From: Staphylothermus marinus F1
GTDB taxonomy: Archaea; Thermoproteota; Thermoprotei_A; Sulfolobales; Desulfurococcaceae
Length of the DNA: 32,000 nt
Reading direction: 5' to 3'
Assembly: GCF_000015945.1 (NCBI RefSeq)
Contig: NC_009033.1
Coordinates: 330,001 to 362,000 of the forward strand
Under the pieces are notes generated by a model. That model saw nothing but the letters and a program-made list of their open reading frames with translations, was not told the DNA's origin and did not search any database. The translations under genes were made by a program, and so were the position numbers. Below, piece by piece: positions 1,337-8,503 of this stretch (positions are counted from its first letter, which is position 1; each line of letters opens with the position of its first letter).

Positions 1337-2311
1337 TTAGGTTGTTTTTATGCTTGGTTTGTGTAGTATTTGGTTTGTTTTTAGTAGGTATTTTGTGTTT
1401 GTGTTTGTTTCTTCTAGGAGTAGGTGTCCTGCGTAGTAGTCTTGTATTATTAGTTGTTTTCCTATTATTTGTTTTAGGTTTGTTTCTTTTGCTTTATGGT
1501 ATTCTGTTATTTCTGTGTTTGGTTCTATTCGGAATATTGTTGGTTGTTTTGTTTGTTTTATTCCTAGGATTCGCTGTGTTTTTGTAAGTGTTTTTTCTAG
1601 TTTTAACAGTACTGGTGGTATTGGTGTTTTTATTGTTTCTTTTAGTTTTCTATGTGGTTTTTCTGTTAGTCTTTCTAGTTTTCCGGCTTTGATCTCTATG
1701 TTTCTTGTTTCTACTGCGCTGTTAGATGTGTATAGTGTTGTTGCTACTATGTGTGGTTGTTCAGCTATTCTATCTAGTAGTCTCCATGTTCTTGTTGTTC
1801 CTACTTTGAATTTGTCTTTGTTGTAGGCTAGTAGGTAGACTGTATAGTTTATTTTATCTTTGTATTTCTCATCTAGTATCCAGCAGTTTCTCAAGCTTTC
1901 TAGTCCCGCTGTTGAGAAGCATTTGGAATATATTGCTCTAATACTATTCCTATGCTTCGAGCAGTATCCAAGCTCTGAAACCGCTTCTCTAACACAGTAT
2001 TCCCTCTCTAAAGGATTATCTTTCCTCTCCAATGGACCATTATGCCAGCGACAATACTCTACATAGTTCTCCACAAACATAATTTTCTCGCCGGGAACAA
2101 TTAAGTGTAGTATATGCGAACCCTCCTCCTGAGCAATTAAACCATAAAATACAAGCTTATACCTAACAAGCTCCCTACCCATCTCCAAACCCATAAACAT
2201 ATCCAACCCAGAAACTCTAACATACTCCTTAGAATAAAACCTCGTATCAAAATAGAAAAGCCTAGGTATCAAAACATATCCCTCCCCCCATAAATCCATA
2301 AATTTCCTCAC
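1337..2311 (-). CDS. Uncharacterised 324-aa protein located between two CRISPR arrays
   Basis: Only long ORF in the 1.2-kb interval between leader 1 and the distal end of array 2; GTG start. It has YC-x-x-H motifs (YCRWH, YCSKH) and a segment, YTVYLLAYNKDKFKVGTTRTWRLLDRIAEQ, that resembles GIY-YIG/T5orf172-like cores (weak, from memory). The C-terminal third is K/T/N/Q/P-rich low complexity caused by nucleotide skew. Confidence 0.6.
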   Translation of the reverse strand: MRKFMDLWGEGYVLIPRLFYFDTRFYSKEYVRVSGLDMFMGLEMGRELVRYKLVFYGLIAQEEGSHILHLIVPGEKIMFVENYVEYCRWHNGPLERKDNPLEREYCVREAVSELGYCSKHRNSIRAIYSKCFSTAGLESLRNCWILDEKYKDKINYTVYLLAYNKDKFKVGTTRTWRLLDRIAEQPHIVATTLYTSNSAVETRNIEIKAGKLERLTEKPHRKLKETIKTPIPPVLLKLEKTLTKTQRILGIKQTKQPTIFRIEPNTEITEYHKAKETNLKQIIGKQLIIQDYYAGHLLLEETNTNTKYLLKTNQILHKPSIKTT

Positions 2312-2545
2312 CTATATTAAGGAATAATAATTATACATTAAATATTTCAGAAAACACATCGCTTCACGAAGCTAATAATTCCATTAGAATCCGGGACACT
2401 ATTTTCCAATACAAAGAAACCATTGATCCTTTTCTTAATAGTTCCATATAATTGACCAGCCATTTACAGGATAAATATTTACCTTTCATATTCATTATTC
2501 GAATACCAACAAACTAGAAGAATATGATACGTATAAGAACTATCG

Positions 2546-3483
2546 CTTTCAATTCTTTCTATGTTGTTACCTATCACTTCTATTTTGATCTATGGGAGGA
2601 GAACCCGTTACTTTCAATTCTTTCTATGTTGTTACGAGAAAATACTGCGTGAACTCTCTAAGCATGATTGTCGAGCTTTCAATTCTTTCTATGTTGTTAC
2701 ATTGACTCCTAATTTGTTTCTGCAAAAACGTGATATGCTCTTTCAATTCTTTCTATGTTGTTACTTAGAGTTACCTAGGGAACAGGTTTACGACTTAGTA
2801 ACTCAATCTTTCAATTCTTTCTATGTTGTTACATACACCGATCGAAGTTATTGAAGAATACGAGAGGGAAATATCTTTCAATTCTTTCTATGTTGTTACA
2901 AATACACTTGTCCAATATGCGGTAAAGAGTTTAAGAGTGCTTTCAATTCTTTCTATGTTGTTACATGGATTGTAATAAAATACAGAGCCGATTGGAGCTG
3001 GAACTTTCAATTCTTTCTATGTTGTTACTAGGGGGCAAGATCAAGGTTAGCCTCAAGGCTATGGCTACCTTTCAATTCTTTCTATGTTGTTACTGTTGTG
3101 TTGTGGGTTGTTGTTGTGTTTTTTTGTGTGTCTCTTTCAATTCTTTCTATGTTGTTACTTAGAGTTACCTAGGGAACAGGTTTACGACTTAGTAACTCAA
3201 TCTTTCAATTCTTTCTATGTTGTTACCATTTGAAGTATTTCGGCTAGACGTTTCCAGCCCATGTATCTTTCAATTCTTTCTATGTTGTTACTAATATAAA
3301 TAAGAGTGAGGATAAGAAGCAAGAAAAAATACTTTCAATTCTTTCTATGTTGTTACACCATCTGGTGAACGGGCCATTGGTGCTGTATGGTATAGCTTTC
3401 AATTCTTTCTATGTTGTTACCAAGCCATTCAAGCCATTGAACTATTTTTTTATGCATACTTTCAATTCTTTCTATGTTGTTAC
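2546..3483 (-). CRISPR. CRISPR array 2: 15 repeats, 14 spacers
   Basis: Repeat CTTTCAATTCTTTCTATGTTGTTAC starts at 2546, 2611, 2676, 2740, 2808, 2875, 2940, 3004, 3069, 3134, 3202, 3267, 3332, 3396 and 3459. The leader follows at 3484. One 43-bp spacer occurs twice (2765-2807 and 3159-3201). Confidence 0.97.
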
Positions 3484-3642
3484 TTTGGTTCGAATATGTT
3501 GTTACATTTATCTTTTTTGTTCGAACCACTATATATTTCTTTCTATATTTAATTCCTAGATTGATCGTGTTCGACCAGTTTTCTATAGACTTAATAGTAT
3601 CTTTGAGGTATTGACGGGTTTGTATAATGAAAAACATTCGAC
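3484..3642 (-). promoter_or_regulatory. CRISPR leader of array 2
   Basis: Conserved leader copy. Its repeat-proximal end carries GTAACAACATA (RNA sense), an 11-nt copy of the repeat 5' end, directly before the first repeat. Confidence 0.85.
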
Positions 3643-3711
3643 TAGTTTCCATTAGTTTTATGGGTAAAGTTTCTATATTTTTCTATACTATTTTTTATTT
3701 GGTGGCTGGTT

Positions 3712-6501: not shown

Positions 6502-6508
6502 AAATGTG

Positions 6509-6666
6509 GTCGAATGTTTTTCATTATACAAACCCATCAATACCTCAAAGATACTATTAAGTCTATAGAAAACCAGTCGAACACGATCAATTAGGGATCA
6601 AATATAGAAAAACATATATAACAATTCGAACAGATTAAATAAATGTAACAACGTATTCGAACCAAA
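6509..6666 (+). promoter_or_regulatory. CRISPR leader of array 3
   Basis: Reverse complement of leaders 1 and 2 with scattered substitutions. TCGAAC motifs at 6577, 6626 and 6657, GTCGAAT at 6509, TATA-like CATATATAAC near 6625-6635, and the half-repeat GTAACAACGTA at 6645-6655. Confidence 0.85.
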
Positions 6667-7597
6667 GTAGCAACATAGAAAGAATTGAAAGCCTCATAAA
6701 AACAATGTCTTAAAAAACAATTATATTTAAGTAGCAACATAGAAAGAATTGAAAGCTCAGCAATCAGCTTATTATCTCTATAAACCCTGATATTGGTAGC
6801 AACATAGAAAGAATTGAAAGTTCTTTTCTTGAGGGCTTCTCTAAGGGTTTCGGCTACTATGTAGCAACATAGAAAGAATTGAAAGTAGGCGAGGACGACA
6901 TGGTTAGGTGGAGAGCGAGAACCCGTTGTAGCAACATAGAAAGAATTGAAAGTCCCCCGCCACACCACGCACACAAAACATGCATGCAAAAGTAGCAACA
7001 TAGAAAGAATTGAAAGTTGTAGAATAGCCTGGGCTACTGCCTCTACCTTCTCTTTAGTAGCAACATAGAAAGAATTGAAAGTTTATCCCCACAAACCTTA
7101 GCAGTATATCGTATAACTGGTAGCAACATAGAAAGAATTGAAAGCGGACTCGGTTTTGCCAGCGATATCGGGGTAGCGGATGTGTAGCAACATAGAAAGA
7201 ATTGAAAGGTCCATAAATTTGTGGAGCATACTCTACTAGCATTTCATGTAGCAACATAGAAAGAATTGAAAGAAGATTAATGGAATTGCAACGCTTATTA
7301 ATGCTATTATTAGGTAGCAACATAGAAAGAATTGAAAGCTGCCGTATCAAGCTTCGGCACAATTTTTGTCCTAAATATGTAGCAACATAGAAAGAATTGA
7401 AAGTTAGAGACCTATGCGTCCTAATAGAGGTATTGCTCTCCTAGGTAGCAACATAGAAAGAATTGAAAGATAGGAACCGCTCTGTGGCATGCGTTTATAG
7501 AAATTGGTAGCAACATAGAAAGAATTGAAAGAGAGATACAGCGAGATAGATTATACGCCGACAATTGACCAAGTAGCAACATAGAAAGAATTGAAAG
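6667..7597 (+). CRISPR. CRISPR array 3: 15 repeats, 14 spacers
   Basis: Repeat GTAGCAACATAGAAAGAATTGAAAG starts at 6667, 6731, 6796, 6861, 6928, 6992, 7057, 7120, 7184, 7248, 7314, 7379, 7445, 7507 and 7573. All 15 copies carry G at position 4; the other arrays carry A. Confidence 0.97.
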
Positions 7598-7612
7598 ATT
7601 ATTTGGGGTTCC

Positions 7613-8503
7613 TTATGTTTGTTGGGTTTTTATTTCTATATGTCCTAGTCCTATTGCTCTGCTTGATCCTGCTCCCATTATTTGTGCGTGGCTTAGTATG
7701 TTTTCTATTAGTAGTTTTTCTTTTTTGCTAGTGTTTTCTTTGTTTATCCAGTATTTTACGTATCCTGTTAGTGCTGGTATTGTTTTTTGTTCGTATAGTA
7801 CTTCTACTTGCTTAACCGTTTTCCAATATGTTTTGCTTTCTATGAGTACATAGTTTATTATGTCTAGTATTCTCCAGTATTCCGGTCCTCTTTTATACAT
7901 CTTGGTTATTTCTCCAGCATTATAGCTGAAAAGTATTCCAGGTAATATGTTTAGTCTCTTATACTTTGATTTTCTATATGGATCTATTGGTTGTACAGGT
8001 GTTCTAAACATCACTTTTACTGAATCAGTATTGTCTAGTTTTATTGGGGGGTTATTGTTTGGCAACTTATATGTTTTAACATCTAGGTCTGTGAGTATCC
8101 ATTCAGTGTTGAAAAATTTTATACTATTAATTCCTAGAACAGCTTCAAGAATCATTCCAGAAACCTCTTCACTACATGATACTGTGAAGAAATATTTTTT
8201 GTCAGGCTTAACAGTAGTGATTCCATTATTGACACCAGCTCTCTTCCATAAATAAACCACGCCGTTTCTACTATAGTATCCTATAGGTGTAACATGTATA
8301 GGTTTAGGCTGATCAGGAATGCTTTCCTCAAAAATCTTTTCAAGCAAAGGATTACTTTTAATAAGCAAAGACTTTACAACTTTACCAGTGAACGGTGGGA
8401 GAACAGCTGGATTAGTAACAGTTATCCCAACATGTACAACATAGTATCTCCTACTAGGAGCAGAAAATAAGACATGCTCAATATCAAGACCTATATCAAT
8501 CAA
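7613..8503 (-). CDS. cas6: Cas6 crRNA-processing endoribonuclease
   Basis: 296 aa. C-terminal glycine-rich loop GAGSSRAIGLGHIEIK is typical of Cas6 RAMPs. Convergent with array 3: the stop is 15 bp from the last repeat. A paralog lies at 17514-18413. Confidence 0.85.
   Translation of the reverse strand: MIDIGLDIEHVLFSAPSRRYYVVHVGITVTNPAVLPPFTGKVVKSLLIKSNPLLEKIFEESIPDQPKPIHVTPIGYYSRNGVVYLWKRAGVNNGITTVKPDKKYFFTVSCSEEVSGMILEAVLGINSIKFFNTEWILTDLDVKTYKLPNNNPPIKLDNTDSVKVMFRTPVQPIDPYRKSKYKRLNILPGILFSYNAGEITKMYKRGPEYWRILDIINYVLIESKTYWKTVKQVEVLYEQKTIPALTGYVKYWINKENTSKKEKLLIENILSHAQIMGAGSSRAIGLGHIEIKTQQT

What the first reader, a model, noticed from the sequence alone, without database searches (positions are those of the whole stretch)
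1337..8100. Sawtooth G+T versus A+C strand asymmetry that flips sign across CRISPR arrays 1-3
Hand counts of + strand G+T in 60-nt blocks give the following.
- Right of leader 1: 88% (1341-1400) and 82% (1461-1520).
- Left of array 2: 20% (2161-2220).
- Right of leader 2: 72% (3721-3780).
- Left of leader 3: 23% (6301-6360 and 6361-6420).
- Right of array 3: 80% (7681-7740) and 72% (7741-7800).
- Mid-operon control: 53% (12001-12060).
The rule is that on these flanks the strand running 5'->3' away from the array is G+T-rich. This holds regardless of array orientation and of the coding strand. The left flank of array 1 does not show it.
The skew is visible at synonymous sites.
- cas1, first 60 codons: 59/60 end in G or T (Lys AAG, Arg AGG/CGT).
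- cas4, last 83 codons in the same operon: 73/83 end in A or C (Lys AAA, Arg AGA, Thr ACA).
- cas6, last 62 codons next to array 3: 58/62 end in A/C.
- The homologous C-terminal 22 codons of the cas6 paralog at 17.5 kb, which has no array nearby: only 13/22 end in A/C.
Enrichment of G+T on one strand is what C->U and A->hypoxanthine deamination of exposed single-stranded DNA produces. That is established for replication skew, for the mitochondrial H-strand gradient and for the non-template strand in transcription-associated mutagenesis.
My inference is that the arrays are sources of outward-directed strand exposure. Candidates are read-through or bidirectional array transcription with R-loops (bidirectional array transcription has been reported in Sulfolobus), Cas3 3'->5' unwinding toward the leader side, or local replication or repair initiation. 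I know of no description of such a CRISPR-centred mutational footprint.
Caveat: the baseline here already leans toward A/C-ending codons in some genes (cas7 is about 77%), so the G/T-ending flanks are the stronger anomaly.
Basis: partly seen in the sequence, partly recalled or inferred. Interest (0 to 1): 0.85.

Follow-up and report, generated by a model that had tools for sequence, protein, structure and literature searches.

The report
Strand-biased mutation tracts flanking CRISPR arrays
In this hyperthermophilic archaeon the DNA on both sides of every CRISPR array carries a ~400-base mutational scar, with the strand that runs away from the array enriched in T and G. The scar has rewritten the codons, and partly the proteins, of neighbouring genes, and I found no published description of it.

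Summary
All 60-nt counts and codon counts reproduce. The window lies in a 1,570,485-bp genome (probably Staphylothermus marinus F1). All 12 CRISPR arrays of that genome have a G+T-rich right flank, and 10 of 12 have an A+C-rich left flank. Mean right-minus-left G+T is 0.28, against 0 for random sites (z=16.5). The skew peaks at the array or leader edge and decays with a length of about 400 nt. It is driven by third codon positions in real genes (cas1, cas4, cas6, an aldolase, apgM).

Two array sites are empty in the sister species. Comparing them polarises the changes on the outward strand: A>G 80 versus G>A 9, C>T 46 versus T>C 8, A>T 38 versus T>A 14. So this is an array-dependent, directional mutational footprint.

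The same footprint flanks arrays in several related families, but not in Sulfolobaceae or the Ignicoccus-like family. In the genomes sampled it occurs only where type-1 RNase H was not found. My preferred mechanism is recurrent single-strandedness of the outward-running strand through R-loops or outward untranslated transcription. This is inferred, not shown.

The effect is not exclusive to CRISPR. Weaker or occasional versions occur upstream of tRNA genes, around hsdS, and at ordinary intergenic regions.

The parts
548..1162 (-). CRISPR array 1 (10 repeats; the + strand reads CTTTCAATTCTTTCTATGTTGTTAC; crRNA sense, ending ATTGAAAG, is the - strand). Its trailer-side (left) flank is not skewed.
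   Evidence: (RF01339)
1163..1336 (-). Leader 1, one of 12 conserved leaders (81-97% identical over about 160 nt). It is already T-rich on the strand running away from the array.
1337..1900 (.). G+T tract on the + strand (79% over 200 nt). It begins sharply where leader homology ends and covers the 3' half of orfX.
1337..2311 (-). orfX, 324 aa, with only a weak DUF2797 hit. Coding-strand GT3 runs from 0.95 at the 5' end to 0.00 at the 3' end.
1950..2400 (.). A+C tract on the + strand (30% G+T) on the trailer side of array 2. It covers the 5' part of orfX and the intergenic DNA.
2546..3483 (-). CRISPR array 2 (15 repeats). It contains an exact 95-nt duplication (repeat-spacer-repeat) at 2738-2832 and 3132-3226.
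3484..3653 (-). Leader 2 (95-97% identical to leader 1).
3654..4100 (.). G+T tract on the + strand (76%). It covers the 5' untranslated DNA and the first ~130 codons of cas1 (GT3 0.95-1.00 in the first 60 codons).
3712..6501 (+). Adaptation operon: cas1 (3712-4737), csa1 (4746-5678), cas2 (5685-5951), cas4 (5938-6501). All are real genes by Pfam. The middle of the operon is unskewed.
6150..6501 (.). A+C tract on the + strand (21% G+T). It covers the last ~100 codons of cas4. The Cys codons of the Cas4 cluster are retained. The tract ends sharply at the leader 3 edge.
6502..6666 (+). Leader 3 (an inverted copy; 87% identical to leader 1).
6667..7597 (+). CRISPR array 3 (15 repeats; crRNA sense on the + strand).
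7598..8100 (.). G+T tract on the + strand (72%), on the trailer side of array 3. It covers the last ~60-150 codons of cas6 (7613-8503, - strand; coding-strand GT3 0.05-0.10 there).
20393..20839 (.). A+C tract on the + strand (27-31% G+T). It covers the 5' ~125 codons of a DeoC/LacD-family aldolase (19874-20767, - strand; coding-strand GT3 0.87) and leader 4 (about 20683-20839).
20840..21124 (+). It is absent from the syntenic site of the sister species.
21152..21585 (.). G+T tract on the + strand (72-74%). It covers the 3' untranslated DNA and the last ~80 codons of phosphoglycerate mutase apgM (21338-22621, - strand; A+C at third positions 0.83-0.88).

Best explanation
The tracts are a local, strand-asymmetric mutational footprint that emanates from each CRISPR array. 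Within about 400-700 nt of an array or leader edge, the strand that runs 5'->3' away from the array has accumulated A>G, C>T and A>T changes far faster than the reverse changes. In the S. marinus lineage this is roughly 5-10 times the background rate at A and C sites (a rough estimate of mine). Third codon positions reach about 90-100% G/T, or A/C on the other side, and first and second positions shift too.

Most likely mechanism (inferred): that strand is recurrently single-stranded in a cell growing near 90 C. There, unpaired DNA suffers cytosine and adenine deamination and depurination. The likely cause of the exposure is untranslated transcripts that leave the array in both directions (read-through at the trailer end, antisense or divergent transcription at the leader end). 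These form R-loops that persist in lineages in which no type-1 RNase H was found, displacing the outward-running, non-template strand.

Shown: the footprint, its polarity, its dependence on an adjacent array at two loci, the substitution spectrum, and its taxonomic distribution. Inferred: single-strandedness, the transcripts, the R-loops, and the role of RNase H.
For: Association with arrays:
- 12/12 right flanks and 10/12 left flanks are skewed; z=16.5 against random sites; the top 6 of 997 junctions all hold arrays.
- The tracts start at the leader or array edge, with a decay length of 397 nt, and leader and trailer sides are equal in strength.

Mutational, not protein-driven:
- GT3 is 0.83-0.96 or 0.08-0.17 in Pfam-confirmed genes.

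Derived and array-dependent:
- The moaC-like gene beside array 11 has GT3 .92 in this genome.62 in the sister species (no array there) and .46-.65 in nine other genera.
- Summed over three flanks on the outward strand: A>G 80 vs G>A 9; C>T 46 vs T>C 8; A>T 38 vs T>A 14. More than 800 nt away the counts are symmetric: 49 vs 65 and 55 vs 45.

Composition at four-fold sites in the tracts:
- T .71, G .16, A .09, C .04. From established knowledge, this resembles the strand of vertebrate mtDNA that stays single-stranded longest.

Taxonomic distribution:
- The skew is present in families f1, f2, f5, part of f9, and in f15 (the f15 genome was an out-of-sample prediction, D=.33).
- It is absent in all genomes with RNase HI (PF00075/PF13456): f10 13/13 carry it, f12 3/3, f11 2/3, f13 1/1; RNase HI was not found in f1 0/13, f2 0/5, f5 0/3, f9 0/10.

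tRNA genes, and knowledge from elsewhere:
- tRNA genes, which have efficient terminators, are skewed on average only upstream.
- A>G excess on the non-template strand is the known hallmark of transcription-associated asymmetry in mammals (my knowledge).
- In Pyrococcus furiosus, CRISPR arrays and rRNA/tRNA loci are hotspots of DNA-end-dependent spacer uptake, with a strand flip at the first spacer, and R-loops are discussed as a cause (PMC5737086).
Against: - The weak genome-wide version is as strong at convergent gene pairs (no promoter between them) as at divergent ones, and 3' ends are as skewed as 5' ends. Simple promoter-driven transcription does not predict this.
- The outward strand carries 4.5 runs of T>=5 per 800 nt, against 1.55 expected, including runs inside the leader. 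These should terminate archaeal RNA polymerase early, yet the skew runs for 500-700 nt.
- The rRNA operon, the most transcribed locus, has only weak flank skew.
- The hsdS flanks and a mid-gene flip in a DUF1156 methylase have no obvious promoter.
- The RNase HI correlation is confounded by kinship. It has exceptions: two RNase HI-negative f9 genomes show no skew, and both also lack NucS.
Confidence: 0.4

Rival explanations
1. Nick- or gap-initiated DNA processing at the arrays, not transcription. Candidate sources of nicks are Cas1-Cas2 integration at the leader-proximal repeat, breakage at repeats, or branched-DNA cleavage by NucS/EndoMS. From the nick, the strand whose 3' end faces the array is excised 3'->5', or DNA synthesis displaces a strand outward. 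Either way the outward-running strand is left single-stranded, is damaged, and is then copied.
For: - The polarity fits: 3'->5' excision from a nick at the array exposes exactly the outward-running strand (logic only).
- The effect is equal in strength on the leader and trailer sides.
- In P. furiosus and E. coli, arrays are experimentally known sources of free DNA ends; in P. furiosus the strand preference for captured protospacers flips at the first spacer (PMC5737086).
- Every skew-positive genome sampled has NucS, and the two RNase HI-negative genomes without skew lack it.
- NucS discriminates G/T, G/G and T/T from A/C, A/A and C/C mismatches, which is the same keto/amino axis as the skew (PMC4838380).
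Against: - The trailer-side skew starts at the far end of arrays up to 1 kb long, not at the first repeat.
- Non-CRISPR sites and ordinary intergenic regions show the same sign.
- The standard archaeal route, a double-strand break followed by 5'->3' resection, exposes the opposite strand and predicts the opposite sign.
- NucS is also present in several Sulfolobaceae that have no skew.
- The sister species has no cas1, yet its flanks are skewed; this could be a relic.
Confidence: 0.22
2. A footprint of recombination. Arrays and other hypervariable defence cassettes are repeatedly replaced by homologous recombination. The 3'-tailed arms of the incoming fragments are single-stranded and heat-damaged, and are then incorporated next to the cassette.
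For: - The sign and gradient fit an 'ends-out' replacement model (logic only).
- Arrays are hypervariable in natural populations while their flanks are nearly identical.
- Non-CRISPR centres include hsdS and the middle of a DNA methylase gene, which are classic swap-prone specificity modules, and a fast-evolving gene.
Against: - My rough estimate: recombination events per lineage are far too rare, and the single-stranded intermediates too short-lived, to convert about 40% of the A and C sites in one species' history.
- One 2.7-kb 'centre' is collinear and 84% identical in the sister species, so it is not a swapped cassette.
- The tRNA effect is upstream only.
- Sulfolobaceae, which also exchange DNA and vary their arrays, lack the skew.
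Confidence: 0.1
3. Selection rather than mutation. The G+T/A+C tracts are kept because they are useful, for example as oligo-T terminator zones that insulate neighbours from array transcripts, or as structure-free DNA or RNA next to the leader.
For: - T>=5 runs are three-fold enriched on the outward strand.
- The tracts are conserved in metagenome strains.
- An A+C-only or G+T-only strand cannot form Watson-Crick hairpins with itself (logic only).
Against: - Several strongly skewed trailer flanks have no T>=5 run at all.
- Termination needs a few T runs, not 95% G/T at third positions over 150 codons together with altered amino acids.
- The smooth exponential decay and the transition-dominated directional spectrum look like mutation pressure.
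- The skew persists as a relic where the array is gone.
Confidence: 0.08
4. The arrays behave as local, origin-like sites of DNA synthesis, for example R-loop- or bubble-primed abortive replication. The lagging-strand template or the displaced strand of short outward forks is the strand that gets exposed.
For: - The sign is identical to the classical origin skew, with the keto-rich strand running away from the site.
- The effect is symmetric on both sides and independent of gene orientation.
- In the lineages with the skew, no type-1 RNase H was found. That enzyme is the one which suppresses R-loop-primed replication in E. coli (my knowledge).
Against: - The two orc1/cdc6 loci show no local skew, and the genome has no clear replichore-scale keto skew.
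- The scale is 400 nt, not replichores.
- There is no direct evidence of initiation at arrays.
Confidence: 0.12

Closest known systems
Transcription-associated mutational strand asymmetry and R-loop-linked skew at the 5' ends of mammalian genes (G+T excess on the coding strand, A>G and C>T excess on the non-template strand, decaying from the TSS); described from my knowledge
   Same: Keto (G+T) excess on one strand, dominated by A>G and C>T. It is polar and decays over hundreds of bases from a start point. It is linked to displaced single strands.
   Different: Here it is centred on CRISPR arrays in an archaeon, on both sides. It is independent of the orientation of the genes it overlies. Its amplitude is far larger (third positions 90-100%). 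It has a marked A>T component. No transcript has been shown.
Replication-associated strand skew and the vertebrate mitochondrial H-strand gradient (time spent single-stranded)
   Same: The same sign relative to the 'source', and a similar four-fold-site composition on the exposed strand (T and G up, C nearly gone). The skew grades with distance.
   Different: The scale is about 400 nt instead of replichores or a whole mitochondrial genome. There are 12 or more sources in one chromosome. The canonical orc1/cdc6 loci show nothing.
CRISPR arrays as hotspots of DNA-end-dependent self-spacer uptake (P. furiosus, PMC5737086; E. coli, as cited there)
   Same: Arrays, and rRNA/tRNA loci, are places where flanking DNA is processed directionally. 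A strand preference flips at the array.
   Different: Those are acquisition maps from experiments. No evolutionary base-composition footprint was described, and none was found in my literature searches.
Strand-coordinated mutation clusters at resected double-strand breaks (kataegis)
   Same: Clustered mutations confined to one strand, with a sign switch across a central point.
   Different: The sign is opposite to what 5'->3' resection from a break in the array predicts. The spectrum is A>G, C>T and A>T rather than cytosine-only. It is an evolutionary equilibrium rather than a single event.

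Membership tests
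CRISPR array, repeat family Rfam RF01339 (CRISPR-DR27), with a type I-A cas module | Regularly spaced 25-nt repeats reaching the Rfam gathering score, a conserved leader, and adjacent cas1/cas2/cas4/csa1, cas6, cas7/csa2, cas5 and cas3 | tested here: met
Transcription-associated or R-loop mutational asymmetry | Excess of A>G and C>T on one strand (the non-template strand), decaying from a start point | tested here: met
   On the outward strand, A>G 80 vs G>A 9 and C>T 46 vs T>C 8. Decay length 397 nt. That the outward strand is the non-template strand is assumed, not shown.
Transcription-associated or R-loop mutational asymmetry | The sign follows the direction of a demonstrated transcript, and its strength scales with expression | not testable with these tools
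   No RNA run was listed for this organism. Indirect tests are mixed: tRNA genes are skewed upstream only, the effect at convergent gene pairs equals that at divergent pairs, and the rRNA operon is weak.
Transcription-associated or R-loop mutational asymmetry | RNA:DNA hybrids present over the skewed DNA | not testable with these tools
   There is only a correlation. Type-1 RNase H was not found in the lineages with the skew, and was found in all sampled lineages without it except two f9 genomes.
Replication-origin skew switch | The keto-rich strand runs 5'->3' away from the site on both sides | tested here: met
Replication-origin skew switch | Coincides with an Orc1/Cdc6-type origin and extends over a replichore | tested here: not met
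   The orc1/cdc6 genes at 794 kb and 1190 kb show no local skew. The tracts decay within about 0.4-1 kb. There is no clear genome-scale keto skew.
Break-and-resection (kataegis-like) clusters | The exposed strand is the 3'-ended tail, so on the left of the break the top strand carries the damage signature | tested here: not met
   The observed sign is the reverse: left flanks are A+C-rich on the top strand.
Low-complexity coding sequence (Thr/Pro-rich surface-protein linkers) | The skew is carried by codon positions 1-2 and by a few amino acids, not by position 3 | tested here: not met
   Array flanks have GT3 of .83-.96 or .08-.17 and ordinary amino-acid mixes. The feature is met for about 17 other tracts elsewhere in the genome, e.g. 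157679-158589.

The most novel reading that the evidence does not exclude
In hyperthermophilic Crenarchaeota in which no type-1 RNase H was found, CRISPR arrays (and some other non-coding RNA loci) are constitutive sources of single-stranded DNA. They hypermutate a few hundred bases of whatever lies next to them in a fixed strand polarity. This is a new, locus-centred class of mutational asymmetry that reshapes cas genes and housekeeping proteins. It marks present and former array positions, and could serve as a genomic read-out of R-loop load.
Probability: 0.35. Interest if true: 0.85.

Novelty: new variant of a known kind. Interest (0 to 1): 0.8.

Why it matters
If confirmed, owning a CRISPR array carries a local mutational cost. 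Neighbouring genes, including the adaptation genes themselves and central-metabolism enzymes, are driven to extreme codon usage and altered amino-acid usage.

It would give a sequence-only marker for active, recently lost and newly gained arrays. Relic skew remains in the sister species where the array has been deleted, and a derived skew appears where an array was gained or is retained.

It would also offer a natural system for studying how single-stranded DNA damage, R-loop removal (RNase H) and archaeal mismatch processing (NucS/EndoMS) shape genomes near 90 C. The clear presence/absence pattern among families makes that directly testable.

A practical point: the tracts create spurious long ORFs on both strands, because an A-poor or T-poor strand has no stop codons. 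They also bias any codon-usage or horizontal-transfer scan of cas loci.

Tried and rejected
- RNA evidence: the look-up of sequencing runs listed no RNA holder for this stretch, so expression and transcript direction could not be examined.
- Metagenome contigs: they could not show strand or level of any RNA, and gave too few listed SNPs to derive a population spectrum. A putative 12-kb-skipping joint (8664->20665; 24 nt on the shorter side of the joint) was judged too weak to interpret.
- Tandem Repeats Finder does not see the arrays, because the spacers vary. A k-mer spacing script was used instead.
The wider sampling was done through the genome search and the fetch from genomes instead.
- Rfam found no known RNA at the non-CRISPR skew sites, apart from tRNAs and RNase P RNA.
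- No orphan leaders exist that could explain those sites as former arrays.
- Endonuclease V is ubiquitous and does not discriminate. NucS alone does not discriminate.
- Rejected: Thr/Pro linkers as the explanation for array flanks.
- Rejected: canonical origins as the source.
- Rejected: a break in the array followed by 5'->3' resection with damage on the 3' tails (wrong sign).
- Rejected: a Cas-specific mechanism as the sole cause, because non-CRISPR sites show the effect.
- Rejected: horizontal transfer or foreign composition, because the skew is a smooth gradient inside conserved genes and is derived relative to nine outgroup genera.

Full report
WHAT IS THERE

The window is bases 330001-362000 of a single-contig genome of 1,570,485 bp with 35.7% G+C. 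From memory, the size and G+C fit Staphylothermus marinus F1. The same-genus genome G001 is 1,580,347 bp, the size published for S. hellenicus P8.

The window holds four CRISPR arrays of one repeat family (Rfam RF01339):
- array 1, 548-1162
- array 2, 2546-3483
- array 3, 6667-7597

Each array has a conserved leader of about 160 nt. Between and beside them lie real genes by Pfam: an unknown orfX, cas1-csa1-cas2-cas4, cas6, csa3, a type I-A effector module (csa2/cas7, cas5, cas3), a second cas6, a DeoC/LacD-family aldolase and the phosphoglycerate mutase apgM.

CHECK OF THE OBSERVATION

The sign rule also holds at array 4. Coding-strand GT3 runs as a gradient through whole genes:
- orfX, 0.95 to 0.00
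- cas6, 0.75 to 0.05
- aldolase, about 0.9 to 0.3
- apgM, 0.7 to 0.0-0.1

The genome has 12 arrays. All 12 right flanks are G+T-rich on the + strand, and 10 of 12 left flanks are A+C-rich. The two exceptions are trailer-side flanks, at array 1 and at the array at 1564220.

Right-minus-left G+T over 500 nt averages 0.284. Random placements average 0.000 (sd 0.060), and no mean of 12 random values exceeded 0.077. With third codon positions only, the six most skewed of 997 gene junctions all contain arrays.

Averaged over 22 flanks, the outward strand is 64-70% G+T for 400 nt and relaxes to 48-50% with a decay length of 397 nt. Leader and trailer sides are equally strong.

Metagenome contigs from hydrothermal and sediment samples carry the skewed segments 1301-2570, 3654-6535 and 7577-9997 with 0, 3 and 2 differences. 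These contigs break at the arrays, where many alternative spacers appear. The tracts are therefore genuine and fixed, while the arrays are hypervariable.

WHAT KIND OF SIGNAL

The skew sits at third positions: 0.83-0.96 at gene 5' ends and 0.08-0.17 at 3' ends. It also pulls positions 1-2 from 0.50 to about 0.62-0.65, or to 0.28-0.35. So amino-acid usage is shifted as well: Val, Gly, Leu and Arg in G+T tracts; Lys, Thr, Asn and Pro in A+C tracts.

Because the pattern is symmetric under reverse complementation, 'gene 5' ends are G+T-rich and 3' ends A+C-rich' is the same statement as 'the strand running 5'->3' away from the intervening segment is G+T-rich'.

Composition at four-fold sites:

| Sites | A | C | G | T |
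|---|---|---|---|---|
| baseline | .41 | .12 | .10 | .37 |
| G+T tracts | .09 | .04 | .16 | .71 |
| A+C tracts | .72 | .165 | .03 | .09 |

T is the sink, and purines are lost in net. Pure C>T and A>G cannot be the whole story.

DIRECTION OF THE CHANGES: A NATURAL EXPERIMENT

The sister species has no cas1 hit and only small arrays. At the syntenic sites of arrays 11 and 12 it has no array.

The moaC-like gene to the right of array 11 has GT3 0.92 in its first 110 codons in this genome. The value is 0.62 in the sister species and 0.46-0.65 in nine other genera. The skew is therefore derived in the lineage that has the array.

Differences are written sister>this genome, on the outward strand, within about 400 nt of the array, summed over three flanks:
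- A>G 80 vs G>A 9
- C>T 46 vs T>C 8
- A>T 38 vs T>A 14
- G>T 18 vs T>G 17

Further than about 800 nt the counts are symmetric: A>G 49 vs G>A 65, and C>T 55 vs T>C 45. Outgroup-polarised sites in the moaC-like gene agree: 11 A>G, 3 A>T and 2 C>T among 19 changes on this lineage. Nucleotide identity falls to 0.65-0.81 in that tract, against 0.85-0.92 beyond it.

Two loci show the skew outliving the array:
- At the site of arrays 5/6 the sister species keeps only a partial repeat, yet the flank is still 88-80-69% G+T.
- At the apgM-aldolase spacer it has no array, yet the apgM 3' end has third-position A+C of 0.97.

So the skew builds up after an array is present and persists for some time as a relic after loss.

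NOT ONLY CRISPR

Of 70 extreme 200-nt tracts genome-wide:
- about 20 abut arrays
- about 17 are trivial Thr/Pro- or Lys/Glu-rich coding low complexity
- about 30 are third-position tracts elsewhere

The third group includes:
- sites upstream of some tRNA genes (667818, 693666, 625683, 719035)
- both sides of RNase P RNA
- the end of hsdM and the start of hsdR, around hsdS
- a flip in the middle of a DUF1156 DNA-methylase gene
- flanks of a conserved 2.7-kb three-gene segment

On average tRNA genes are skewed only on their upstream side, and the rRNA operon only weakly.

A weak effect of the same sign (about ±0.05 in GT3) flanks all intergenic spacers longer than about 10-60 nt. It is absent where genes overlap, and is as strong at convergent as at divergent gene pairs.

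The two orc1/cdc6 loci show nothing. There are no orphan leaders.

TAXONOMIC DISTRIBUTION

I fetched cas1-linked arrays from about 35 other genomes of the class.

Skew present (D = 0.12-0.41, or one-sided flanks of 60-95%):
- family f1 (this family), though weak in one genus
- f2
- f5
- three genera of f9
- one f15 genome, which I had predicted beforehand from its gene content (D=0.33)

Skew absent (D between -0.09 and +0.10):
- all 12 Sulfolobaceae (f10) genomes
- three f12 genomes
- one f11 and one f13 genome
- two f9 genomes

Some tracts in other genera are extreme, for example about 700 nt at 6-22% G+T beside an f9 array.

Type-1 RNase H (PF00075/PF13456) was found in f10 13/13, f12 3/3, f11 2/3 and f13 1/1. 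It was not found in f1 0/13, f2 0/5, f5 0/3, f9 0/10 or f15 0/4. Every sampled genome with the enzyme lacks the skew. The two RNase HI-negative genomes without skew also lack NucS/EndoMS, which every skew-positive genome has. Endonuclease V is everywhere. Kin are not independent, so these are leads, not tests.

MECHANISM

The sign constrains the options. The exposed or mutated strand is the one running 5'->3' away from the array.

This excludes damage to the 3' tails left by 5'->3' resection of a break in the array, which gives the opposite sign.

It allows:
- the non-template strand of outward transcription or R-loops
- the strand displaced by, or serving as lagging-strand template for, outward DNA synthesis
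- the strand uncovered by 3'->5' excision from a nick at the array
- the 3' tails of incoming recombining fragments that carry the cassette

A constitutive, every-generation process is needed to move about 40% of A and C sites within one species' history. By my rough estimate this makes rare recombination events an unlikely main cause.

I favour persistent R-loops from untranslated transcripts leaving the arrays, for these reasons:
- the A>G- and C>T-dominated spectrum
- a T-sink consistent with added depurination at about 90 C
- the upstream-only effect at tRNA genes
- the RNase HI pattern
- the P. furiosus evidence that arrays and rRNA/tRNA loci are sites of directional DNA processing (PMC5737086)

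Weaknesses of this view:
- the background effect is independent of gene orientation
- there are many oligo-T runs on the outward strand
- the rRNA operon is weak
- the hsdS and methylase cases have no obvious promoter

A nick-processing route is the main rival. It may involve NucS, whose G/T, G/G, T/T versus A/C, A/A, C/C specificity lies on the same keto/amino axis as the skew (PMC4838380).

COMPARISON AND NOVELTY

The phenomenon works like known single-strand-exposure asymmetries: transcription-associated skew, origin skew, and the mitochondrial H-strand gradient. It is not a member of the origin class; the scale and Orc1/Cdc6 tests were not met. Membership in the transcription class cannot be tested here.

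Four literature searches found no description of a base-composition footprint centred on CRISPR arrays. I rate it a new variant of a known kind, of high interest. It is strong, general across arrays and several families, absent in sister families, and experimentally approachable.

Noticed in passing
window 20840-21124: A fourth CRISPR array (5 repeats, leader at about 20683-20839) lies between the aldolase and apgM genes. It is absent from the syntenic spacer of the sister species.
   Followed up: yes
window 2738-2832 and 3132-3226: An exact 95-nt duplication (repeat-spacer-repeat) inside array 2. The same spacer therefore occurs twice, which suggests an internal duplication of about six repeat-spacer units or a recombination between repeats.
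   Followed up: no
window 1342-1587, 1515-1826 (+) and other ORFs inside tracts: Long spurious ORFs open on both strands inside the skew tracts, because an A-poor or T-poor strand has almost no stop codons. This is a trap for gene callers.
   Followed up: partly
window 21276-21326: A 22-nt tandem repeat (2.3 copies, consensus TATTGTTTAGGGTTTAGAGTTT) sits in the G+T tract just downstream of apgM.
   Followed up: no
G001 (same genus), whole genome: No Cas1 match was found in the sister species. Its arrays of the same repeat family are small (1-5 repeats) or reduced to partial repeats, which suggests a decaying CRISPR system. Several of these remnants still have skewed flanks.
   Followed up: partly
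G000 157679-158589 (L001 2680-3590) and about 15 other sites: Convergent surface-protein genes end in long Thr/Pro-rich linkers followed by a hydrophobic anchor. These give extreme A+C or G+T windows that mimic the array tracts but are driven by amino-acid composition.
   Followed up: yes
G000 759298-765461 (L003): A type I restriction-modification operon (hsdM-hsdS-hsdR) is absent from the sister species. The 3' end of hsdM and the 5' end of hsdR carry array-like skew tracts around hsdS.
   Followed up: partly
G000 579709-582726 (L050 2710-5727, - strand): A 1005-aa DUF1156/methyltransferase ORF has a skew flip in mid-gene. Coding-strand GT3 is 0.08-0.20 at codons 250-350, then 0.76-0.96 at codons 550-700. 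There may be a hidden boundary or a swappable specificity region there.
   Followed up: partly
window 10053-10907 and 10924-12373: Metagenome strains differ most from the window in cas7/cas5/cas8-like genes (19 differences and 18 gap letters in 837 nt, and replaced segments of about 0.7 kb). The array-adjacent segments are nearly identical.
   Followed up: no
G000 genome-wide: There is a mild gene-position gradient in all genes: coding-strand GT3 is about 0.52 near starts and about 0.46 near ends. It is present only where an intergenic spacer adjoins the gene, and it is independent of the neighbour's orientation.
   Followed up: partly
L063 11200-11860 (G035, family f9) and L065 8800-9260 (G054, family f5): Other genera show even more extreme array flanks: about 700 nt at 6-22% G+T, including apparently non-coding leader-side DNA, and about 500 nt at 80-89% G+T.
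   Followed up: partly
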